Source: an uncultured Spirochaetota bacterium (GTDB taxonomy: Bacteria; Spirochaetota; Spirochaetia; SZUA-6; Fen-1364). From it: DNA of 64,000 nt. This document shows, piece by piece, positions 15,861 to 26,154 of the stretch. Where the stretch lies: the NCBI GenBank assembly GCA_963820525.1, contig CAWGAA010000001.1, positions 192,001 to 256,000 of the forward strand, given 5' to 3'. The translations under genes were made by a program, and so were the position numbers. Below the pieces are notes generated by a model, which ran no database searches, was not told the origin of the DNA, and saw nothing but the letters and a program-made list of their open reading frames with translations. Each line of letters opens with the position of its first letter. Position 1 is the stretch's first letter.

Positions 15861-17426
15861 TTACCTGGCGCCTCTCGCGGGGCCGGCGCCGCGCTTGCCG
15901 GATGAACGGCGCTGCGGCGCGGCACGCTTCTTTGAAGCGGTCTTGCCTGCGGCCCGAGTCCGCGGAACGCGCGTAGCCGGCGGACTCGCGTCCTGCCGCG
16001 GGGCGCTTTCTTTTGCGGCGTGCGTCGTGCTGGGCCGGGCGTCTGCAACCCTCAACTCCCTGCTTTTCCCATTCTCCGAGCGGAACGGAAAGCTCTGTCC
16101 GAGCACGTCGTCGTTTTCGCCGGAGAGCTTCGGGAAACGGTCAGCCTTCAGCACGTCGAAGCCCAGTCTGCTCTCCTTGAGGCGGAACCGCGCCAGGGAG
16201 CGGGCGTTGCGCCGGGTGATGAGGCTGAAGGTCCCGTCGGTCTCATTGAGGAAGACCTCGCCGCCGGCCCGCAGGGTCACGGGCGCGGTCATGAGCGGCT
16301 CATTGTCAACGTAGAGGAGAAACCGCACGGCTCTCCCCGATGCAAGCCTCCGTGCGGAGAAGATGGCCAGGAGGACGAGGGCCGCGAGCACCGCCAGAGC
16401 GACGAATGCGAGCCACCAGTAGTTCTCGACGACGCTTCTCACCTCGAGCGTGACGCCGACCTCTGACGGGTTGAAGCGTTCTCCAGAGAGGAACGAGAAG
16501 GAGAGGGTGCCGCTGGTTTTTCCCGCCGGCAAATCATTCGGGAAGCGGACGGGGACTCTCACGTTTGTGGTTCCGGAAGCCGCCACCGTGATGGGCAAGG
16601 ACGAAGGCAGGATGTTGGCGGCCGAGCGGGAGCCGAGGCGCGCCTCGATGCCGGCGATGGAAACCGATACCTCATGCGAGTAGCCCTCGCTCTTCAGAGC
16701 GAAGGAAAGCGAGCTGGATCCCCCCGAGCCGACCGGCGCGACGCTCACCCCGCCCGTAAGCGTCACCGAGCCCAGGAGGTTTTCCGTCTGCGCCTTCAAG
16801 CTCTCCACCGAAGGGTTTCCTGAAATCTGCGCAAAAGAGCCGGAGAGTTGCTGGGCAAGCTCTCTCACCTCGGCTTCCACGCCAATGCCGAGGATCTCGA
16901 TCTTCCAACCCTCTTTCTGGATGGTCTTGATGTTTGCCAGGAACTCGTGGTTGAACTTCCCGCTCGGTGAATAGTACTTGCTTGTGGGAGGAGCTTCCTG
17001 TCTGCCATCAGTCATCATGAGGACGAATTTTTTTCTTGAATCATCGGAAAGCGTTGCAATTTGCTCCTTCATGGCATCAAGTGCATTTCCAATATCTGTA
17101 AATCTTCCATTAGCTCTAATTTTGTCAATGATTGCTTTGATTTTTTGAATATCGGTCTGGTTTTTAACGATTTGAGAAACAATGACGTTCGCTTTCCCGT
17201 AGAAGCCAATGATGATGAGATTGTCTCCGGGAATGAGGACATCGTCGAGCAGCCACGTATTGACGTAGCGTTTGACTGAATCGATCTTTCCGTCCTCCGC
17301 CATCGAGAGGGATTTGTCTACGGCAAGGATGATGTCGATGTTCTCGGTTCGTTTGTCGGCGAATGCCGGGAGTGACAGGACGAAGAGCAGCGCCAGAGCG
17401 AGAAGGGAACTTTTCCGCGTTTGCAT
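15861..17426 (-). CDS. membrane-anchored VWA domain protein
   Basis: Signal peptide, MIDAS DKSLS, TDIGNAL, MTDG, a TM helix and a basic tail. Confidence 0.85.
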   Translation of the reverse strand: MQTRKSSLLALALLFVLSLPAFADKRTENIDIILAVDKSLSMAEDGKIDSVKRYVNTWLLDDVLIPGDNLIIIGFYGKANVIVSQIVKNQTDIQKIKAIIDKIRANGRFTDIGNALDAMKEQIATLSDDSRKKFVLMMTDGRQEAPPTSKYYSPSGKFNHEFLANIKTIQKEGWKIEILGIGVEAEVRELAQQLSGSFAQISGNPSVESLKAQTENLLGSVTLTGGVSVAPVGSGGSSSLSFALKSEGYSHEVSVSIAGIEARLGSRSAANILPSSLPITVAASGTTNVRVPVRFPNDLPAGKTSGTLSFSFLSGERFNPSEVGVTLEVRSVVENYWWLAFVALAVLAALVLLAIFSARRLASGRAVRFLLYVDNEPLMTAPVTLRAGGEVFLNETDGTFSLITRRNARSLARFRLKESRLGFDVLKADRFPKLSGENDDVLGQSFPFRSENGKSRELRVADARPSTTHAAKESAPRQDASPPATRVPRTRAAGKTASKKRAAPQRRSSGKRGAGPARGAR

Positions 17427-17491
17427 ACAGCCCCCCATCTTCGTATACTTATGTTTGTAGCATGCACCATATCGGGATAAATTGGAAGAGT

Positions 17492-17570: not shown

Positions 17571-19601
17571 ATGGCAGGTATTGACCTTCCCAAAAGCCCG
17601 AATGTGTTCCACCCGGAGAAACCGAGTGCAGTCGGGTCCCGCAACTCCCTCGCCCAGGAGTTCAGGGATCAGCAGGCTGAGGTCGACCTCCTTCTCAGCG
17701 AAGAAGTAGATAAAGTACTGAATCATCTCACCTCGAAACTACCAAAGGAAGTCGCCGAAAAACTCGACGTCATGGGTGGGTTGAAGGAGAAGCTGTACAA
17801 CTACTTCAACCAGAACTACCAGAACATGTTCAACCGCTACATCGTCACCACGGAAGACGAAATGGTGAAGAAGGTGCGGAACTTCATCGACAAGGAAGAG
17901 ATGAAGGCCCTCGCCCGCTACACTCCCAAGGAGATCGCGGCCCTCCTGGATCAGGTGGGCGGCATCGACAAGTTCAACACGGGTGAAATCGAGAAATCGA
18001 TTGTCAACATGTTCGGCCACTTGCAGGGCCACATCCAGCGCGGCGTCAACGATCTGGAGAACCTCACCAACAGCCTCCTCCGCCAGAAGACCGACGTCGG
18101 CGCGTTCATCAGGGGCGAGAACGCGTACTCCATCGTGAAGTGCTCCTTCAAGGACAACGCGATAAAGCCCAAGACCGTCACTGACGTGAAGCTCTCGGTC
18201 AACATCCTCGACTCCGAGCTCATCAGCCCCATCTTCCACTATCAGGTCACCGTGGAGTTCCTGATCAAGGACCTCATCTCCAAGAACATCATGGACCTGA
18301 TCGACAAGGAGATCGAGAAGCTCAAGGACCAGCTGGTGGACGAGGGCAAGGAAGAGCTCTCCGACGGCGAGATCCTCTTCGAAAAGATGGAGAGGGTGGA
18401 GAAGTTCACCTCGGACGACAAGGACGACCCCAAGTCCAAGAGGTACAGCTTCTTCGCCAAGAGCCTGATGGACAAGATCGAGGGTCTGCGCGCCGAGATC
18501 GATCCCGAGGAATACGATCCGGTCAACGTTCGCGAGAACCTGAAAAAGATCATCGACCTTGAGAACATCAGGAACAGGGGCTTCAACACGGCCATCAACT
18601 CCATCACCTCCATCCTCGACACCTCCAAGATGGGCTACCAGCACGTGGAGAACCTCAAGAACGCCCGCGAGCTGGTGCTGAGGGAGTATGAGGACACGGA
18701 TGCCAGCCAGGTGCCCGATGAGAGGTACTCCATCCGGCTGAAGTATTACGACCAGGCCCAGCTGCTGGAGGAGCGCAAGTCCTACGACGTTCAGGCCAAG
18801 AGCTTCGAGGTCGAGGTCCAGCACCTGTGGGACGTGCTCGAGATGGTCTATGAAGACTCCAAGTTCATGAAGGGCGTGGTCGATTTCAGCGACCTGGCCA
18901 GGAGAATGAAGGGAAAGATCAAGAGGAGGATCAAGGCCAAGACGGGAGATCCCCTCTACGAAGACATCGAGAAGTCGTGGGACGAGATCATCTTCGTCCG
19001 GCCGGGAGACACCGAGGTCGAGCGGATGAACCGCACCTACATCCCCGAAAAGGACAAGATCAAGAGACGGATCATCCTCATGAGGGACAAGCTGCAGAAG
19101 CTGTACGGCTACCGCTACCCGATCCAGCGCCGGGTCATGGAAGATCGGCTTACCTATCTCGAGAAGGATTTCCTGAAGTTCGAATACATGATCAACCCGT
19201 ACCACATCCAGCCCGGCCTTCTGCTCGACGTGGACATCACCTCGATCAAGAGGAAGAAGGCGACCCTTGACGGAATGTCCAACGTGCTCAACGAGTTCCT
19301 CTATGGAGTGTCGAAGGGATTCCAGGATGCGGCTTTCGCTTCCTTCTCCCGCAGGCGCTCCACGGTCAGGGCGGACATTGCCCAGTCCTTTGCCGGCACT
19401 TCCCCCGGGCAGGAGCAGCCAACCGAGGGCGCGCCCTCCAAGGGCTCCGAGTACCTCGACATGATCAATGTCCCCGCGGCGGCGGAGTCAAAGGCACCCG
19501 CCCGCACTCCGGGCGTCGTGGACGTGTCCAAGCGAGGACGGAGACCCGCCAGGAGGGGCAGGCCCCGGAGGGGCGGTGACGCGGGCTTGAGAGAAATCTA
19601 A
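17571..19601 (+). CDS. cfpA: cytoplasmic filament protein CfpA
   Basis: [25 protein letters not shown]...[19 protein letters not shown]...[17 protein letters not shown] matches treponemal CfpA as I recall it. Strong codon bias. Confidence 0.95.
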
Positions 19602-19619
19602 GTCCTCTCCATGAGATAG

Positions 19620-19657
19620 ATGGTGACCTTCTCACGGAGGTCACCATTTTCATTTTT
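19620..19657 (+). terminator. intrinsic terminator or attenuator after cfpA
   Basis: ATGGTGACCT-8 nt-AGGTCACCAT followed by T-rich runs. Confidence 0.7.
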
Positions 19658-19692
19658 CAGCGTTTTTTGAGCAGAGATAGAGGGAAGAACAC

Positions 19693-20727
19693 ATGCAGGA
19701 ACAACTCCATCTGTTTGACGGGCTCAGCACACGCGATGGGTTCAACAAGTCTCTCAAGCACTTCAAGTTCATCGCGAATGTCATTGGCGAGTTCGAGAGA
19801 AACCGCAATCTTGCGGAAGTCCTGAGTGACAGCCTGGCGGAAAAGTCGATCGAGCCTGACCAGGTTCTTCCCACGATCTGCGCCATCCTCGTGGACAAAT
19901 ACCACTACGCGTACCGCTCGTACAACCTCGAGGAGAACTTCGAGGATTTCGACGCGGTAGCGGCGGAGGCGAGCAAGTGGAAGGCCGTGGACCTCGTCGT
20001 GGCCTACTTCCACCCCGAGCTCGGCGTCGTGGCGGTCAATCCCAAGAACCCTGCCCACTGGAGCGTGGTCCAGAGCCTGAAGAAGAACGAGCTGGTCACC
20101 GTTTTTGCCGGCGCGTTCCAGAAAACGACCACAAGCGATACGTACATGCAGGCGATCGAGCTCCTCCTCTCCATGATCCAGGGGGGGAAGGTCCGCACCC
20201 CCGCGGCGCTCACCAAGGGCCGCTTCGTGCAGAGGGCACCCTCCAAGGCGCCGGCTCCCGCGGCCGCACCCAGGCGCGTGGGCCGTCCAAAGTCAGCCAG
20301 AGCGGCTTCGGCTGCTCCCGCCGGCGCGGCACCTGCCGCGGCCTCGGTGGCAGCGGCCGCGGCCGCCGCTCCCGCAGCCGCTCCATCCGGCGCGCGCAAG
20401 AAGATGACTCCCATGTACGGGATCGTCGTGACGAACGAGCTGTTCCACAACGGGAACGTGGAGGCCTGGAAAAAGATCATCCAGAGCTATACGACGAAAT
20501 ACCCCGGATTGGAGGTGTACGTCTTCTACGAGGGCGAGCGAATCCACGACATCAACACCCTCTTCAAGTGGGGGAAGGTGAAGCACGGGAGCGCCATCAT
20601 GATCTCCGTGGCGGGAGACGATATCAGGGACGTCGCCAAGCTCAACCGTTACCTGAAACAGGGAGCGAGCCATATGTTCGAGGCTTTCCTGAAGGCTCCC
20701 GTCAACGCGATTCTCAATCTCTTTTGA
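19693..20727 (+). CDS. conserved hypothetical protein with Ala-rich linker and C-terminal HPr-like domain
   Basis: IVVTNELFH...LEVYVFYEGERI...GSAIMISVAGDD resembles HPr. His252 at 20446-48. Confidence 0.65.
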   Translation: MQEQLHLFDGLSTRDGFNKSLKHFKFIANVIGEFERNRNLAEVLSDSLAEKSIEPDQVLPTICAILVDKYHYAYRSYNLEENFEDFDAVAAEASKWKAVDLVVAYFHPELGVVAVNPKNPAHWSVVQSLKKNELVTVFAGAFQKTTTSDTYMQAIELLLSMIQGGKVRTPAALTKGRFVQRAPSKAPAPAAAPRRVGRPKSARAASAAPAGAAPAAASVAAAAAAAPAAAPSGARKKMTPMYGIVVTNELFHNGNVEAWKKIIQSYTTKYPGLEVYVFYEGERIHDINTLFKWGKVKHGSAIMISVAGDDIRDVAKLNRYLKQGASHMFEAFLKAPVNAILNLF

Positions 20728-20830
20728 GCGGCGTTTGCCTTTGGCAGGCCGCTGATTTAGCGCGGCGTACGGAACAGGTAAGCCGCCGCTGATACAAGAG
20801 CGGCGTTTGCCTCCGGCAAGCCGCCGCTGA
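20726..20830. repeat. three REP-like imperfect palindromes
   Basis: GAGCGGCGTTTGCCT at 20726 and 20798; AAGCCGCCGCTGA at 20780 and 20818. Confidence 0.7.
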
Positions 20831-20850
20831 GGTGCAAGGGAAGGAAAGGC

Positions 20851-23492
20851 ATGAAGAAGAACATCTATTTCTTCGCCCAGGGCGAAGCGAACACCAAGCC
20901 CCAGGTCCTCGAGAGGATCGGCATCCGCGGGCGTCTGGCCATGGAGCTTGCCGACCTCGATCTTCCCATACTCCCCGGTTTCATCATCGACGCGGACGTC
21001 GCCTCCCACCTCAAGGACTACAAGATCCGGCCGGCCCTCGAGCCGTGGTTCGACAAGCTGGCCAAGCTCACCGGCAAGAGCTTCGGTGACGCGGACAATC
21101 CCATGCTGGTGAAGATCGTCATCAGCCCCAACCTCGTGATCGCCACCTATCCGACCCTCCACAACTACGGCCTTACCGAAAAGACCCTCAACGGGTTCAA
21201 CGCCTTCGTCGGGGAAAACTTCGGCCTGCACGAGCTGCAGTTTCTCACCCGGGGAAACCTCGAGATCGAGCTCGCTATAGCCGAGATCGAGGGGCGAGAG
21301 AAGGAGGCCAAGGCCCTGAAGCAGTCGATCAAGCAGCTGGATGCCGACATGGATTCCGAGATGGACGCGAAACGAAGGAGGGAGTGCGTCACCAAGTACA
21401 TGGCAATGCTTCCCGAAGGCTTCTTCGCGGACTCGTTCTCCCAGCTGGAGATCGCGCTCAACAGGATCAGCCATCTTCTTTCCATAAACGACCAGAACCA
21501 GGAAGACACGGCGCTCCTCATCCAGCCCATGGTTTACGGAAACTATGGAAAGGATTCCGCATACGGGCAGTTCTACACCCGAAACATCGTCACCGGAGAC
21601 AAGCAGATTCAAGGCGAGTTCTTCCAGAGCAAGTTCAACGCCATCGGCGCCTCCGGGTCAGAGATCGAAAAGATCGCGAAGAACTACTTCAACGATCTGG
21701 AACGGATAGCCCACAGGGTGGAGGACCATTTCAAGGAGATCCGCTCCATCCGCTTCACCGTCGAAAACAAGAGGCTGTGGCTCATCGATCAGCGCTCCGT
21801 GATGACCAAGTCCACGCAGTCGGACATCCGCACCCTTCTGGACCTGCACTCCAGAAAGATCGTGAACGACGAGTACGTCATCAACCAGATAAAGCCGGGA
21901 CAGCTGAACGAGATCCTGCACCCCATCATCAACCTCTCCTCGGTGCAGAAAATGAAGAACCTCTCCGGCGGCATCGCGGGTGCCCCGGGGGCGGCCATCG
22001 GACGGGTGTTCTTCAGCACGGCCGGGCTTCTGGACGCATTCAAGAGCGCTCAAAAACTGGGCCAGGACACCAAGCTCATCCTCTGCCTGCCCGCAAGCTT
22101 CGCGGAGGACGTCAAGGCGATCGAGGTCGCCACGGGGTCCTCTCCACGGAAGGCGGCTATTCGGCCCACGCCTCCGTCGTTGCGCGCCAGTACGGGAAGG
22201 TGTCGTTTGTGAAGCCGGACATGAAGATCCGCGGCAACCGCGCTACCGTGGGGGACACCGTGATCAAGGAGGGTGATTACCTCACCCTGAACGTCCCCTT
22301 CTACGGAATTCCCTCCGTCTACCTCGGCAAGGCCGAGCTCATCGAGCCGGATCCCGAGGAGTCGGGGATGCTCGACTTCCTGAAGATCGTCCAGAAGTTC
22401 GTGACGCGCTTCCACGTGAGGACCAATGCCGACACTCCCCGGGACGCGGCTCTCGCGCGGACATTCGGGGCCCGCGGCATCGGGCTGTGCCGCACCGAGC
22501 ACATGTTCTTCGCCGAAAAACGGATCAACGTTTTCCGCGAGATGGTGATCTCCGGCTCCCTGGAGGAGAGGAAAAAGGCCCTGGCCAAGCTGCAGCCCAT
22601 GCAGCAGGCGGACTTCTACAAGCTGTTCAAGATCATGGAGGGAAACCCCGTCATCATACGGCTGCTCGACGCCCCGCTCCACGAGTTCCTGCCCCATAAC
22701 GAAACGGAGATGGAGCAGTTCATGAGCTACCTCAACGCGGGCAAGAAGGCCGACGCCCGGCTGCCCGAGAGGGAGGTGCGGGCGCGCTGCGATGCCCTGC
22801 ACGAGTTCAACCCGATGCTGGGCCACAGGGGATGCCGAATCGCCGTCTCGTATCCCGAGATCTACGAAATGCAGGTCCGCGGTATCTTCGAGGCCGTCTA
22901 TACGCTGAAAAAGGAAGGGATCAAGGTCCAGCCCGAGATCATGATCCCGATCATCATGAACGAAAACGAGCTGAAGCTCATCATCTTCGGCAAAAAGATC
23001 GAGGGCAAGCACATCCGCGGCCTCGTGGACGTCGAGAAGGACGTTCGGGACAGCTTCAAGGCCAGGCCAGCGGAGTACATGATCGGGACCATGGTCGAGC
23101 TTCCCGCCGCGGCGCTGGGAGCCGACCACCTGTCGCGATACGCCCAGTTCTTCTCCTTCGGGACCAACGATCTCACCCAGACCACGATCGGGCTCTCTCG
23201 CGACGACTTCAACACCTTCATGCCGGACTACACGCAGTTCGACCTTCTCGAGGGAAACCCCTTCCAGCTGCTCAATCCCCAGGTGAAAGAGCTGATCCAG
23301 ATGGCGGTCAAGCGCGGCCGGATGTCCCGGCCGGACCTCGAGGTGGGTCTCTGCGGCGAGCATGGGGCCATCCCGGAGAACGTGCGTTTCTGCATCGACG
23401 CGGGGCTCGATTACGTTTCCTGTTCCCCGTACTCCGTGCCCATCGCGAACCTGGCCATCGCCCAGATCATGATCGAGAAAGCGGCGAAATAG
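20851..23492 (+). CDS. ppdK: pyruvate phosphate dikinase-like PEP-binding protein with degenerate ATP site; frameshift at 22134-37
   Basis: QPMVYGN, GGYSAHASVVAR, GIGLCRTEHMF, FSFGTNDLTQ, GLCGEH. Adding one G to the G4 run joins the two ORFs. Confidence 0.85.
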
Positions 23493-23516: not shown

Positions 23517-23548
23517 ATAAAAAAGGGGGCGAAAGCCCCCTTTTTTAT
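23517..23548. terminator. bidirectional intrinsic terminator
   Basis: ATAAAAAAGGGGGC-GAAA-GCCCCCTTTTTTAT between convergent genes. Confidence 0.92.
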
Positions 23549-23583: not shown

Positions 23584-24135
23584 CTACTTGGCCCAGATGC
23601 TGAAGCGATTCAGGCACTTCTCGACGAGGCCGGCAACCTTGTCGGCGTCGTCCTTGGGAACATTCGCTTCCTTGTTGAGAGTGGTCTCGAAAAAGCTCTT
23701 GATGGTTTCCATGACGTCGGCAAGGTTGTAGAAGAGGAAAGCGAAGTTGATTCCCGACGGCTTGATGATCGTGAAGGATCCATAGGTGAGAATGGGCTCC
23801 TTGCTCACCATCACCTTGGTCTGGTTCTTCGAGGTGAGGATCTCCAGCTCCGAGAAGCGGTGGGGGATCTGCTCCTTTGACTGCCTGCGGAACGGCTCAA
23901 GGTGCTTCTGGGCATAATTGGGAGGCTCGCTGAGGACGAAGAGCTTGTTGCCGTCGGTCTGGAAGGTGAGGCCCTCCTCGGAAAGGTAGATGCTCTTCAC
24001 CCCATTGTACGCAACGACTTCATACTTCGAATATGCCGAGTTCTCGTCGAGGAAAGAGGAGATGATGTATCCCCCCTCCTTGGGCAGCTTGTTCTCGCCG
24101 TAGGCCTGAAATAAATCGAGGGCTTTCGTTGCCAT
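23584..24135 (-). CDS. conserved hypothetical soluble protein
   Basis: AGGAG RBS, strong codon bias, its own promoter. Confidence 0.8.
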   Translation of the reverse strand: MATKALDLFQAYGENKLPKEGGYIISSFLDENSAYSKYEVVAYNGVKSIYLSEEGLTFQTDGNKLFVLSEPPNYAQKHLEPFRRQSKEQIPHRFSELEILTSKNQTKVMVSKEPILTYGSFTIIKPSGINFAFLFYNLADVMETIKSFFETTLNKEANVPKDDADKVAGLVEKCLNRFSIWAK

Positions 24136-24249: not shown

Positions 24250-26154
24250 TCAGCTCTCCACGCCGGCGGCCCTGCGGTACTCCTCGGCGCGGGAGAGGAA
24301 TGTAGTGGCGAACTCGCCGTTTCCCATCTTGCGGTAGACCATTCCGAGGTTCCGGTATGCCCTCCAGTCCCGGGGCGAGAGGGAGATCGCCCTGCGGAAA
24401 GTCTCCGCCGACTTCTCCATCGCCTTCTCCTGGAAGTGCAGGACACCGAGCATCAGGAGAAGCGAGAGCTTCTCCCCGTGCACCTTGAGGAACCCCTCGA
24501 TGACCTGGATCCCGATGTTGCGGGCCCCCAGCTTGTCCAGGCAGTAGACGACGGCCTTGACCAGCTCCTCGGAGTCCGGCTTCTCGCGCAGCAGGTCCTT
24601 CAGGATGATCAGGGCGTCCGAATACTTTCCGCTCCTCCTGAAGCAGAGGGCAAGCATCGATTTGAGCCTTCCGTTTTTCGGTTCGGAAGGAAGAAGCCGC
24701 GCGATGTGCACCGCGGCATCGGCGAAGTCTTCCAGCTCCAGAAGGATTCGAACGAGAGCCCTGCGCGTCTTTCTGTCCTCGGGATTCAAATCGAGGTAGC
24801 GCGCGTAGACGCCCTTGAGCTTTTCCCTGTTGCGGAGGGAATCGTAGATGGAGGCCAGGGCGAGAAGGGCGCCTCCGTCATCCGCGGAGACCTTCAGCGT
24901 GCGGATGAACCATCCTTCGGCCAGCTCGGGCAGGCCCGCCTTCAGGTACGTACCGGCGAGGGCGGACATGAGCAGGGGGTCGGGGCCCTTCACGCGGATC
25001 TGCTGCTGCAATGCCGTGATCGCCTCCTCGGCTGGAGCGCCGGTTCTGGCCAGGGCGAGTGAGTTGAAGTACAGCGCCACCGGGTCGGCGGGATGGTTTT
25101 TCAGTATCCTTCGGGCATGGGAAAGGAGCTCTCCATGCTCGCCCAGCTCCCACAGAACGGCGAGCAGGGCGCAGTGTATCTCCAGCGATTCCCTGTCTCT
25201 CTCAATGGCGCGAAGGTAGTGGTTTCTGGCCTTGACGTAGTCGCCGAGGTTGCGGTACGCCTCGGCGACGAGGGCGTGAAGCTGGGGGTCGTCGTACGCT
25301 CCCTTGAGCAGCTTGGTGGCGGAGAAGATCGCCTCCTTGTAGCGCCCCTCGCTGAAGCGCCGCACGGCGATGATGCGAAGGATCTCCTCGGGGTTCTGGC
25401 CGACGGCGGTCTCCGTCTTGAGGAAAGCAGTCCCCGCTCGGATCTCTTCCCCGGCTGCTGTCTTCCTGCCCAGGTCCAGGAGCACGAGGGATTTCTGGAG
25501 GTGAAGGAGGGGATCCTCGGGGGAAATCCGGCAGGCGGCGTCGATGTGGAAGAGGGCCTTCTCCCCCTCGCCCAGCTCGCGATAGATCGTGGCGAGATAG
25601 AGGTGGGGCGCCATGGCGGGGCCGCGCAGGCGCAGGATCTCATCGAACAGCCCGGCGGCTTCGATGAGCCTTCCATGGTAGAAGAGCTTTATGGCAGCCA
25701 CCAGAGTTGCGTTGAGCAGGCCCGCGAGCAGGCTCTTGCTGGCCGGGTCGAGCTCCAGGGCCTTTCTGAAGAAAGCGAGCGATCTCTCGGGCCTGCGCGC
25801 CTTGAGGCAGGCGAAGCCGAGCAGGCCGTATGCCTGGGAAAAGTCGGGGTTTCTTTCAACGGCTTCCCGGAGGCTGCGGATTGCGGCGGGATACATCTCC
25901 AGGGCGATCAGTGACCTGCCCAGGAAGAAATGACCGGCCGCCGAATCGGGCTTCAACCGGACATAGGAATCGAGGGCGCGGACCGCCTTCTCCAGCTCTC
26001 CCAGGGCGTGGTAGCTCCTGCCGAGATAGAGCAGGGCCTGGGGGTAGCCGTCCGAGGTGCCCACCAGGCGCGTGAGAAGCTCCACGGCTTTTGCGTAATC
26101 CCGCCGCCTGCCCGCTTCGATGGCTTGCTGGAACACCTCTGCGCTGTCGCGCGT
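24250..26154 (-). CDS. multi-TPR protein; possible ACG start
   Basis: Continuous TPR repeats. AAGGAGG sits 8 nt before an in-frame ACG. Confidence 0.8.
   Translation of the reverse strand, partial: TRDSAEVFQQAIEAGRRRDYAKAVELLTRLVGTSDGYPQALLYLGRSYHALGELEKAVRALDSYVRLKPDSAAGHFFLGRSLIALEMYPAAIRSLREAVERNPDFSQAYGLLGFACLKARRPERSLAFFRKALELDPASKSLLAGLLNATLVAAIKLFYHGRLIEAAGLFDEILRLRGPAMAPHLYLATIYRELGEGEKALFHIDAACRISPEDPLLHLQKSLVLLDLGRKTAAGEEIRAGTAFLKTETAVGQNPEEILRIIAVRRFSEGRYKEAIFSATKLLKGAYDDPQLHALVAEAYRNLGDYVKARNHYLRAIERDRESLEIHCALLAVLWELGEHGELLSHARRILKNHPADPVALYFNSLALARTGAPAEEAITALQQQIRVKGPDPLLMSALAGTYLKAGLPELAEGWFIRTLKVSADDGGALLALASIYDSLRNREKLKGVYARYLDLNPEDRKTRRALVRILLELEDFADAAVHIARLLPSEPKNGRLKSMLALCFRRSGKYSDALIILKDLLREKPDSEELVKAVVYCLDKLGARNIGIQVIEGFLKVHGEKLSLLLMLGVLHFQEKAMEKSAETFRRAISLSPRDWRAYRNLGMVYRKMGNGEFATTFLSRAEEYRRAAGVES

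What the first reader, a model, noticed from the sequence alone, without database searches (positions are those of the whole stretch)
17571..23492. cfpA, an HPr-like protein and an ATP-site-degenerate PPDK: candidate PEP-driven phosphorelay on the spirochaete cytoplasmic filament
Seen: three co-directional genes that end at one strong terminator (23517-48). Gene 2 ends in an HPr-like domain with a His, and gene 3 is a PPDK homologue that appears to keep only the PEP-to-His half-reaction. Known: PTS Enzyme I shares its PEP and His domains with PPDK and phosphorylates HPr His15. CfpA forms treponemal cytoplasmic filaments implicated in division and DNA segregation. Inference: the 'PPDK' acts as a private Enzyme I for the neighbouring protein, coupling PEP/pyruvate status to the filament. 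I recall a similar gene order in Treponema but am not aware of this function being described.
Basis: partly seen in the sequence, partly recalled or inferred. Interest (0 to 1): 0.9.

Follow-up and report, generated by a model that had tools for sequence, protein, structure and literature searches.

The report
Filament-linked PPDK look-alike and HPr-fold partner
Spirochaetes keep the gene for their internal cell filament beside a protein built from two copies of a phosphate-carrier fold and a copy of the enzyme PPDK whose ATP site has been rebuilt, which points to an unstudied link between sugar metabolism and the cell skeleton and suggests that the syphilis bacterium's only 'PPDK' is not a normal one.

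Summary
The window carries cfpA (17571-19601), a TP0747-family gene (19693-20727) and a PPDK homologue (20851-23492), ending at a bidirectional terminator (23519-23547).

- The PPDK gene is broken by a missing G at 22134-22137. Contigs from two other runs and 74 of 74 related loci are intact, so this is probably an assembly error.
- cfpA has its own conserved terminator hairpin.
- Gene 2 contains two HPr-fold domains, not one.

The C-terminal HPr-fold domain has His252 at the HPr His15 position, conserved in 140 of 140 sampled genomes. In 42 of 42 copies of the PPDK paralog the nucleotide-site residues are replaced, while the catalytic His and the PEP-site residues are kept. The three genes are essentially all present or all absent across 401 Spirochaetota genomes.

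One 1.14-Mb genome whose layout matches that printed for T. pallidum has this paralog as its only PPDK and has no pyruvate kinase.

Phosphotransfer from the paralog to gene 2 is plausible but untested (confidence about 0.4). The complex predictor was unavailable. The gene order is already in print for Treponema. I found neither the altered ATP site nor the HPr folds in the papers I searched. This scan has flagged the same trio before on other DNA.

The parts
17571..19601 (+). cfpA, cytoplasmic filament protein A (676 aa)
   Evidence: ORF. NCBIfam NF040882 scores 1184.7 bits, cut-off 500. Orthologues are 52-78% identical in 148 of 401 sampled Spirochaetota genomes.
19618..19668 (+). Terminator or attenuator-like hairpin (14 pairs, 19618-19649) followed by T-rich tracts, between cfpA and gene 2
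   Evidence: A comparable GC-rich hairpin plus T run sits after cfpA in 66 of 75 related loci, against 1-8 of 75 in ten shuffles.
19693..20727 (+). Gene 2, TP0747 family (Pfam PF27497 TP_0747_N in precomputed annotation), 344 aa
   Evidence: ORF. 2451 relatives, all carrying PF27497, named TP_0747_N. Model pLDDT 87.7.
19906..20187 (+). Gene 2 residues 72-165: first HPr-fold domain, no conserved His at the active-site position
20215..20403 (+). Gene 2 residues about 175-237: Ala/Pro/Arg-rich low-complexity linker
   Evidence: pLDDT 47-69 over residues 190-230. Length and sequence vary between orthologues.
20404..20724 (+). Gene 2 residues 238-344: second HPr-fold domain, nearly invariant in sequence
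20446..20448 (+). Codon of His252, the residue just before helix 1 of the second HPr-fold domain
   Evidence: DSSP helix 253-269. With model residue 7 on HPr residue 1 (1poh), this His falls on HPr position 15, or on 14 with the other offset seen. His in 140 of 140 sampled genomes and in 61 of 63 cluster representatives.
20851..22134 (+). PPDK paralog, 5' part in frame 1: remodelled ATP-grasp-like N-domain and linker
   Evidence: Aligns to solved PPDKs over residues 2-428, E 2.9e-34 to 3e-24. Pfam PPDK_N scores 26.8 bits, below the cut-off of 27. Residue changes.
22134..22137 (+). Run of 4 G where relatives have 5: a frame break in the window's copy
   Evidence: 74 of 74 related loci have one extra codon, Gly in 63 of 63 where readable. 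Contigs from runs X2 and X5 carry an extra G behind 22133.
22137..23492 (+). PPDK paralog, 3' part in frame 3: swivel His domain (GGYSAHASVVAR, His codon 22167-22169) and PEP/pyruvate domain
   Evidence: Pfam PEP-utilizers_C scores 241 bits. The catalytic His and six PEP-site residues are kept in 42 of 42 paralogs.
23519..23547 (.). Bidirectional intrinsic terminator shared with the convergent gene 23584-24135 (-)
   Evidence: Read directly. Flagged on the minus strand.

Best explanation
The three genes encode one conserved module of filament-bearing spirochaetes. The parts are the CfpA filament protein, a tethered carrier protein, and a PPDK paralog.

The carrier protein has a helical N-terminus, an HPr-fold domain without the active His, a long Ala/Pro-rich flexible linker, and a nearly invariant second HPr-fold domain with His252.

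Proposed mechanism:
1. The paralog is phosphorylated by PEP on its swivel His. This is inferred from the intact PEP site and His.
2. The His domain swings to the N-domain. That domain no longer has the AMP/PPi chemistry and instead presents or docks the mobile second HPr-fold domain of gene 2.
3. The phosphoryl group passes to His252. This is inferred and is not shown here.
4. The N-terminal half of gene 2 would hold the carrier at its site of action, possibly the CfpA filament. The PEP/pyruvate state would then be read out near the division and segregation apparatus. This is speculative.

The frame break in the window's copy is most likely an assembly error.
For: Linkage and co-occurrence:
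- In 80 of 80 related loci the paralog follows gene 2 on the same strand. cfpA precedes gene 2 in 76 of 80. The other four end within 330 nt of gene 2.
- In an even sample of 401 Spirochaetota genomes, gene 2 was found in 146, cfpA in 148 and the paralog's N-domain in 145. Two of the 145 are canonical PPDKs.
- From the listed places, 140 genomes hold all three genes. Gene 2 and the paralog are adjacent in 132 of 141, and cfpA and gene 2 in 119 of 142.
- One family of small genomes (f47, 7 genomes) keeps all three genes unlinked.

Carrier protein:
- Two HPr folds.
- His252 is His in 140 of 140 sampled genomes.
- Ala/Pro-rich linkers are typical of swinging carrier domains. This is established knowledge of PTS IIAB and lipoyl domains, recalled rather than tested here.

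Paralog, 42 paralogs against 7 canonical spirochaete PPDKs:
- The K of GGKGANL is R in 42 of 42.
- The R of SVRSGA is V or I in 42 of 42.
- The D and E of DxEFT are both absent in 42 of 42. E becomes R in 37.
- The Q of LQxR is D, E or N in 42 of 42.
- The catalytic His and the residues R, R, E, N, D and C of the PEP site are kept in 42 of 42.
- Of the positions invariant in canonical enzymes, the paralogs keep 21 of 131 in the N-domain and 85 of 109 in the PEP domain.
- Paralogs and canonical enzymes split on one branch with 100% SH-aLRT support.
- The paralog scores 668 and 609 bits on TIGR01828, cut-off 843.45.

Other:
- The window's genome also has a canonical PPDK, a pyruvate kinase, an Enzyme I-like gene and an HPr. 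The paralog is therefore not needed there for the standard reaction.
- Published microarray data list T. denticola TDE0842-44 as repressed together (PMC3914990, Table 5, passages read).
Against: - No phosphotransfer or binding evidence of any kind was obtained.
- The C-domain has no sequence similarity to HPr. Pfam gave no hit. hhalign against the genome's own HPr gave probability 0.3.
- The HPr Arg17 position is Gly254.
- 2 of 63 cluster representatives have Ser or Asn in place of His252.
- The paralog has no counterpart of Enzyme I's helical HPr-docking subdomain. Its N-terminus aligns to the PPDK N-domain.
- The N-domain is still conserved. Mean pairwise identity is 51%, with 24 invariant positions of which 13 are paralog-specific, including R26, K88, S92 and Q314. 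That could mark a new small-molecule site.
- G102 has neither pyruvate kinase nor a canonical PPDK. There the paralog might have to carry glycolytic flux, which a protein relay cannot sink. However, a GTP-type PEPCK and oxaloacetate decarboxylase are present as a bypass.
- In the published T. pallidum two-hybrid tables, TP0747 as bait has five low-score preys, none being TP0746 or TP0748. TP0746 does not occur in the files that were searched (supplement file 1 of PMC2386257; one file could not be read).
Confidence: 0.4

Rival explanations
1. The paralog is still a metabolic enzyme that interconverts PEP and pyruvate. Its rebuilt N-domain uses a different small phosphoryl acceptor, for example Pi to PPi, or another nucleotide. 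Gene 2 is a non-phosphorylated adaptor or regulator that positions or controls it, possibly at the filament.
For: - The N-domain is under purifying selection with new invariant polar or charged residues at or next to the old catalytic positions. These are R for K, K two residues before the lost R, and Q next to the lost Q.
- The second Arg of the LQxR motif is kept in 33 of 42 paralogs.
- G102 has no pyruvate kinase and no canonical PPDK.
- HPr-fold proteins often act by binding alone. PDB titles include HPr with glycogen phosphorylase, Rsd and a fructose regulator.
Against: - No enzyme with such an acceptor is known to me (recalled).
- This reading gives no reason for the strict conservation of a His at the HPr active position in 140 of 140 genomes.
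- Several lineages alter or drop the N-domain. One is a 587-aa form lacking it in G347. Others are 965-972-aa forms whose first roughly 175 residues were not matched by the window's N-domain query.
- G102 has a PEPCK plus oxaloacetate decarboxylase bypass.
Confidence: 0.3
2. The gene 2 protein and the paralog are mainly structural partners of the filament, for example the unidentified bridging or anchoring components. Catalysis is vestigial, or is used only to sense PEP or pyruvate by binding.
For: - The three genes show all-or-none co-occurrence with cfpA.
- The near-invariance of the whole C-domain surface suggests several simultaneous contacts.
- A 2004 tomography paper is titled as revealing 'novel bridging and anchoring components' of treponemal filaments. 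I saw only the reference title, in PMC3398590.
Against: - Retention of the catalytic His and all six checked PEP-site residues in 42 of 42 paralogs argues for retained chemistry. So does retention of 85 of 109 canonical-invariant PEP-domain positions.
- PMC3398590 describes the filaments as having 'single protein composition' (passage read).
Confidence: 0.12
3. Gene 3 is an ordinary PPDK, as the databases say, and its place beside cfpA is a historical accident.
For: - It is printed as 'pyruvate, phosphate dikinase' for TP0746 and 'putative' for TDE0844 (PMC3373638, PMC3914990).
- It has the full three-domain length and aligns end to end with solved PPDKs.
- It is the only PPDK homologue in G102.
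Against: - All five nucleotide or Mg-site positions checked are changed in 42 of 42 paralogs.
- It scores below NCBIfam's equivalog cut-off and below Pfam's PPDK_N cut-off. The same genome's canonical copy, in a control lacking its first ~76 residues, scores 142 bits on PPDK_N.
- It forms a separate clade.
- Linkage and co-occurrence are far too regular to be an accident.
Confidence: 0.08

Closest known systems
PTS Enzyme I with HPr, including regulatory versions without sugar transport such as PtsP-NPr (the latter recalled)
   Same: - A PEP-utilising C-domain plus a swivel phospho-His domain, encoded next to a small beta-alpha-beta-beta-alpha-beta-alpha carrier fold.
- The carrier has a His at the N-cap of helix 1.
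- NPr (5t17) is among the structural matches.
   Different: - The upstream enzyme is of PPDK descent. It scores 104 bits on TIGR01417, cut-off 341.7. It carries a remodelled ATP-grasp-like domain instead of Enzyme I's helical HPr-binding subdomain.
- The carrier is a 344-aa protein with two HPr folds and a long linker.
- The carrier has no sequence similarity to PF00381 and no Arg17.
- The module travels with a cytoskeletal gene, not with sugar permeases.
Pyruvate, phosphate dikinase (EC 2.7.9.1; TIGR01828; solved 1VBG, 5JVJ, 1DIK/1KBL, 2X0S)
   Same: - Three-domain order and length.
- The catalytic His and the PEP/pyruvate-site residues.
- 48% mean identity in the PEP domain.
   Different: - The nucleotide or Mg-site residues are replaced in every member.
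- 25% identity in the N-domain.
- Below the curated family cut-offs.
- A separate clade that co-exists with a canonical PPDK in most genomes checked.
Rifampin phosphotransferase (PMC4844700, passages read)
   Same: - A swivel phospho-His enzyme of the PEPS/PPDK lineage whose His domain delivers phosphate to a non-standard acceptor site.
- That paper notes that one subdomain of its acceptor-binding domain resembles HPr.
   Different: - Its phosphate comes from ATP at an intact ATP-grasp domain and goes to an antibiotic.
- Here the PEP end is intact and the ATP-grasp end is altered, and the HPr-like folds are on a separate protein.
Printed Treponema cfpA loci: T. pallidum TP0748-TP0747-TP0746 and T. 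denticola TDE0842-TDE0843-TDE0844
   Same: - The same gene order and product lengths: 678 and 901 aa printed for TP0748 and TP0746.
- G102 has 678-aa and 904-aa open frames at about 810-816 kb.
   Different: The papers I read treat the middle gene as hypothetical and the third as PPDK. None that I found discusses the altered nucleotide site or the HPr folds.

Membership tests
Pyruvate, phosphate dikinase (TIGR01828 / EC 2.7.9.1) | Three domains in order: ATP-grasp N-domain, swivel His domain, PEP/pyruvate TIM-barrel domain | tested here: met
   End-to-end alignment to TIGR01828 (3-875 of 880) and to solved PPDKs. Pfam PEP-utilizers_C 238-248 bits and mobile domain 31-34 bits.
Pyruvate, phosphate dikinase (TIGR01828 / EC 2.7.9.1) | Catalytic His and PEP/pyruvate-site residues | tested here: met
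   His and six site residues are identical in 42 of 42 paralogs and 7 of 7 canonical enzymes.
Pyruvate, phosphate dikinase (TIGR01828 / EC 2.7.9.1) | Nucleotide, phosphate and Mg-site residues of the ATP-grasp domain. These are Lys22, Arg92, Asp321, Glu323 and Gln335 in C. symbiosum numbering. The numbering and the roles other than Lys22 are recalled from Ye et al. 2001, which I could not read. Lys22 is cited in PMC4844700. | tested here: not met
   0 of 42 paralogs keep any of the five. 7 of 7 canonical enzymes keep all five.
Pyruvate, phosphate dikinase (TIGR01828 / EC 2.7.9.1) | Score above the curated family cut-offs | tested here: not met
   TIGR01828 scores 668.1 and 609.3 bits, cut-off 843.45. 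Pfam PPDK_N scores 16.8-26.8 bits, cut-off 27. The canonical copy of the same genome (control lacking its first ~76 residues) scores 142 bits.
PTS Enzyme I (TIGR01417) | Curated score, and an N-terminal helical HPr-binding subdomain | tested here: not met
   TIGR01417 scores 104.4 bits, cut-off 341.7, and matches only the PEP domain. The N-terminus aligns to the PPDK N-domain instead.
HPr (PtsH, PF00381) | Open-faced beta-sandwich, beta-alpha-beta-beta-alpha-beta-alpha fold | tested here: met
HPr (PtsH, PF00381) | Phosphorylatable His at position 15, at the N-cap of helix 1 | tested here: met
   C-domain: His252 directly precedes helix 253-269 and maps to position 14 or 15 by the aligned ranges. 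It is conserved in 140 of 140 genomes. First domain: no conserved His there. No residue-level superposition was available.
HPr (PtsH, PF00381) | Arg17 next to the active His (role recalled) | tested here: not met
   The sequence is H252-N253-G254-N255. Gly254 is in 62 of 63 representatives and Asn255 in 63 of 63.
HPr (PtsH, PF00381) | Sequence-family membership | tested here: not met
   No Pfam family at E <= 0.01. hhalign of the family profile against the genome's own HPr gave probability 0.3.
HPr (PtsH, PF00381) | Phosphoryl acceptance from a PEP-dependent kinase | not testable with these tools
   Needs a biochemical assay. The complex predictor was unavailable.
CfpA (NF040882) | Curated equivalog score | tested here: met
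   1184.7 bits, cut-off 500, covering 1-604 of 605.
TP_0747_N (Pfam PF27497) | Family match | tested here: inconclusive
   Precomputed PF27497 on all 120 listed relatives, and named TP_0747_N on 94-98% of members of the nearest Atlas clusters. The model is not in the local Pfam copy, so the window's protein was not scored directly.

The most novel reading that the evidence does not exclude
The spirochaete 'PPDK' beside cfpA, including the only PPDK homologue of the T. pallidum-like genome G102, is not a dikinase. It is the PEP-driven kinase of a tethered, filament-associated HPr-fold carrier. This would be a PTS-like phosphorelay rebuilt on a PPDK scaffold that reports glycolytic state to the cytoskeleton controlling division and nucleoid segregation. 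PEP-to-pyruvate flux in that reduced genome would then run through PEPCK and oxaloacetate decarboxylase, and its published energy budget would need revising.
Probability: 0.3. Interest if true: 0.85.

Novelty: new variant of a known kind. Interest (0 to 1): 0.7.

Why it matters
How the CfpA filament is regulated, and what it binds, is not known. The cfpA mutant of T. denticola shows chromosome condensation, filamentation and loss of pathogenicity in a mouse model (PMC3398590, passages read).

This module supplies two conserved, testable partner candidates and a concrete chemical hypothesis. The test is PEP to swivel His to His252.

Independently of that hypothesis, the residue evidence matters for metabolism. 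The enzyme listed as PPDK in T. pallidum and as putative PPDK in T. denticola belongs to a clade whose nucleotide-site residues differ in every member. In the 1.14-Mb genome G102 there is no canonical PPDK or pyruvate kinase to back it up. Metabolic reconstructions that assign ATP formation to this protein rest on an unchecked annotation.

Tried and rejected
- **Complex prediction.** I sent the full paralog of L005 plus the C-domain of its neighbour, as alignments A4 and A5.
- **Fused forms.** I searched for gene 2 fused to a longer protein (603-2000 aa). None scored E <= 0.001, and the tool itself calls this weak evidence.
- **His-less relative P0158.** I looked for its genomic context in metagenome contigs. 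Only four loci came back, at 46-47% identity, so this is not that lineage. I could not check whether loss of His252 goes with changes in the paralog.
- **RNA evidence.** No RNA holder was listed among 20 runs. No statement on expression is made from it.
- **Run X1.** The best holder had no contig bridging the G run.
- **The two HPr-fold domains against each other.** BLASTP found no alignment at E <= 100.
- **Promoter scan.** Two sites against 1.9 expected. The site at 17420-17449 before cfpA is not above chance.
- **Terminator scan.** Six sites against 8.6 expected. The hairpins are therefore argued from their length, and for the one after cfpA from conservation, not from this scan.
- **Papers not held.** Ye et al. 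2001 (JBC), PMC94139 and PMC2519799.
- **Literature searches.** I looked for a printed account of the altered ATP site or of TP0747/TDE0843 function in the held library only. Only PMC3914990 names TDE0843/44 in its text.

Full report
**What is in the window.**

Three co-directional ORFs occupy the stated span.
- cfpA is at 17571-19601 (676 aa).
- Gene 2 is at 19693-20727 (344 aa).
- A PPDK homologue starts at 20851 and ends at 23492.

cfpA is a full-score member of NCBIfam's CfpA equivalog, at 1184.7 bits against a cut-off of 500. Positions 23519-23547 read A6-GGGGGC-GAAA-GCCCCC-T7, a symmetrical hairpin shared with the convergent gene at 23584-24135.

Two things were missed.

First, the PPDK gene is not one open frame here. 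Frame 1 stops being the homologous frame at 22134, and frame 3 takes over at 22137, inside a run of four G just before the catalytic motif GGYSAHASVVAR.
- In 74 of 74 related loci where both halves reach the junction, the halves are in one frame with exactly one more codon. 73 of the 74 have no stop.
- That codon is Gly in 63 of 63 where it can be read directly.
- Contigs of two public runs from different studies (X2: 524 nt with 1 other letter; X5: 287 nt with 3 other letters) carry an extra G behind 22133. The best holder, X1, has no bridging contig.
- The break is therefore most likely a homopolymer error of this assembly, not a pseudogene.

Second, a 14-pair hairpin with T-rich tracts (19618-19649) follows cfpA. 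My script found a comparable hairpin plus T run after cfpA in 66 of 75 related loci. Ten mononucleotide shuffles gave 1-8 of 75. At -15 kcal/mol or lower the counts are 63 against 0-1. So cfpA has its own conserved terminator or attenuator, and gene 2 and the paralog form the tighter pair.

**Gene 2.**

It has 2451 relatives at E <= 0.001 among the 8000 candidates scored. All 120 listed carry precomputed PF27497, which the Atlas names TP_0747_N. An all-against-all HMMER search of 1.84 billion representatives found only 196 clusters.

The AlphaFold model, built from a 63-sequence alignment, has pLDDT 87.7. Its parts are:
- a helical N-terminus (residues 9-69);
- a beta-alpha-beta-beta-alpha-beta-alpha domain (72-165);
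- an Ala/Pro/Arg-rich stretch of low confidence (about 175-237);
- a second domain of the same topology (238-344).

The C-domain was folded alone (pLDDT 93.6).
- HPr fills Foldseek's first ten rows (E 0.0096-0.026, probability 0.96-1.00).

His252 directly precedes helix 1. By the aligned ranges (model 7 or 8 to HPr 1) it falls on HPr position 14 or 15.
- It is His in 140 of 140 genomes of an unbiased phylum sample.
- It is His in 61 of 63 cluster representatives. P0158 has Ser and P0191 has Asn.
- The 80 loci cannot be counted for this, because one retrieval pattern contained the His motif.

Points against a classical HPr:
- There is no sequence similarity.
- Gly sits at the Arg17 position.
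- The first domain has no conserved His at the active-site position.
- The two domains show no sequence similarity to each other.

**Gene 3.**

The N-terminal 428 residues align to solved PPDKs (E 2.9e-34 for maize 1VBG). Pfam's PPDK_N model scores only 16.8-26.8 bits, below its cut-off of 27. The genome's canonical PPDK, in a control lacking its first ~76 residues, scores 142 bits. NCBIfam's PPDK equivalog scores 668 and 609 bits against a cut-off of 843.45.

I aligned 42 paralogs with 7 canonical PPDKs from spirochaete genomes, including the window's own. Residue numbers and roles are C. symbiosum numbering recalled from Ye et al. 2001, which I could not read. Only Lys22 is backed by a passage I read, in PMC4844700.
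- The Lys of GGKGANL is Arg in 42 of 42 paralogs.
- The Arg of SVRSGA is Val or Ile in 42 of 42.
- The Asp and Glu of DxEFT are never kept. Glu becomes Arg in 37.
- The Gln of LQxR becomes Asp, Glu or Asn.
- All 7 canonical enzymes keep all five residues.
- The catalytic His and six PEP/pyruvate-site residues are identical in all 49 sequences.

Of the positions invariant in the canonical set, the paralogs keep 21 of 131 in the N-domain, 19 of 41 in the linker and His domain, and 85 of 109 in the PEP domain.

The N-domain has not simply decayed. Mean pairwise identity among paralogs is 51%. There are 24 invariant positions, 13 of them specific to the paralog, and some sit beside the lost catalytic residues. 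'Remodelled' describes it better than 'degenerate'.

A quick maximum-likelihood tree separates paralogs and canonical enzymes on one branch with 100% SH-aLRT support. The careful search did not finish, and only spirochaete canonical enzymes were included.

**Distribution.**
- In the 80 best of 537 confirmed loci of the species-level genome collection, the paralog follows gene 2 in 80 of 80. cfpA precedes gene 2 in 76 of 80. The other four loci end within 330 nt upstream of gene 2.
- In an even sample of 401 Spirochaetota genomes, gene 2 was found in 146, cfpA in 148 and the paralog's N-domain in 145. Two of the 145 are canonical enzymes at 30-31% identity.
- From the listed places (143, 148 and 145 genomes), 140 genomes hold all three genes. 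Gene 2 and the paralog are adjacent in 132 of 141, and cfpA and gene 2 in 119 of 142. Three gene 2 genomes were not in the printed place rows.
- The non-adjacent cases are partly contig ends. The rest are real: seven small genomes of family f47 keep all three genes apart, and one genus of f23 has cfpA elsewhere.
- The largest families without the genes (f20, 0 of 75; f25, 0 or 1 of 38) lack all three.

**Other genes for the same chemistry.**

The window's genome also has a canonical PPDK, a pyruvate kinase, an Enzyme I-like gene and an HPr.

G102 is a single 1.14-Mb contig. Its gene lengths and positions match those printed for T. pallidum TP0746 and TP0748 (PMC3373638).
- Its only PEP-utilizers_C hits are an Enzyme I-like gene and the cfpA-linked paralog.
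- It has no pyruvate kinase.
- It does have a GTP-type PEPCK and an oxaloacetate decarboxylase beta subunit.

So the annotation 'PPDK' for that organism rests on a member of the altered clade. A bypass from PEP to pyruvate exists on paper.

**What it most likely does.**

What is shown:
- a conserved three-gene module;
- an enzyme that keeps the PEP-to-His half-site;
- a neighbour with a tethered HPr-fold domain bearing an invariant His.

What is inferred: the paralog's phospho-His passes its phosphate to His252, with the remodelled N-domain as the docking site. I give this 0.4.

The main rival (0.3) is that the N-domain has gained a new small-molecule acceptor and that gene 2 is a binding partner only. 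A mainly structural role (0.12) and an ordinary PPDK (0.08) are less likely.

The link to the filament itself rests on co-occurrence and gene order only. Published two-hybrid tables for T. pallidum list five low-score preys for TP0747. None is TP0746 or TP0748, and one supplementary file could not be read. T. denticola microarray data list TDE0842-44 as repressed together (PMC3914990, Table 5).

**Novelty.**

The gene order is in print for T. pallidum and T. denticola. I found no paper in the held library that discusses the altered nucleotide site, the HPr folds or a function for TP0747/TDE0843. Subscription journals are mostly not held.

Earlier notes of this scan describe the same trio on other genomes. 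My tests were made independently on this window and agree with them. Their report of the cassette in a non-spirochaete genome was not tested here.

Noticed in passing
G000 contig C2, about 155546-159598 (locus L003): The genome's canonical PPDK (987 aa from the first Met) ends in a tail of about 100 residues rich in Lys, Ala and Pro. The tail gives a sub-threshold hit to the histone H1-like HC2 family (23 bits, cut-off 40).
   Followed up: partly
window 15864-17429 (-): A VWA-domain protein with a signal-peptide-like start is encoded divergently upstream of cfpA (VWA_2 at 37.6 bits). As listed, the ORF runs on to 17726 and overlaps the cfpA start, so its true start is probably internal. Earlier scan notes call this a conserved cfpA neighbour.
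   Followed up: partly
L088 (G347:C1:2403000-2416000) and G347:C1:2249885-2251651: In G347 the PPDK-like gene next to gene 2 lacks the whole N-domain (587-aa open frame). cfpA lies 160 kb away, inside a 2159-aa open frame with one stop.
   Followed up: no
L100 and L101 (G056, G032), and seven more genomes of families f28, f36 and f14: The paralogs are 965-972 aa long. They have the usual GIRG start, but their first roughly 175 residues were not matched by the window's N-domain. This suggests an insertion or strong divergence in the first subdomain.
   Followed up: partly
Genomes G076, G086, G103, G146, G191, G221 and G256 (family f47, 1.3-1.9 Mb): All three genes are present but on different contigs, and a canonical PPDK is present as well. 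This is co-occurrence without linkage.
   Followed up: partly
P0158 and P0191: Two full-length family representatives have Ser or Asn in place of His252. Their genomic context could not be recovered.
   Followed up: partly
window 22134-22137: A one-base homopolymer loss in a conserved gene suggests that this 4-contig assembly may carry other such indels. Frame breaks elsewhere in the window should be read with that in mind.
   Followed up: no
window 23587-24135 (-): A 183-aa ORF converges on the shared terminator and has no Pfam family at E <= 0.001. A TPR-repeat protein follows it at 24253-26001 (-).
   Followed up: no
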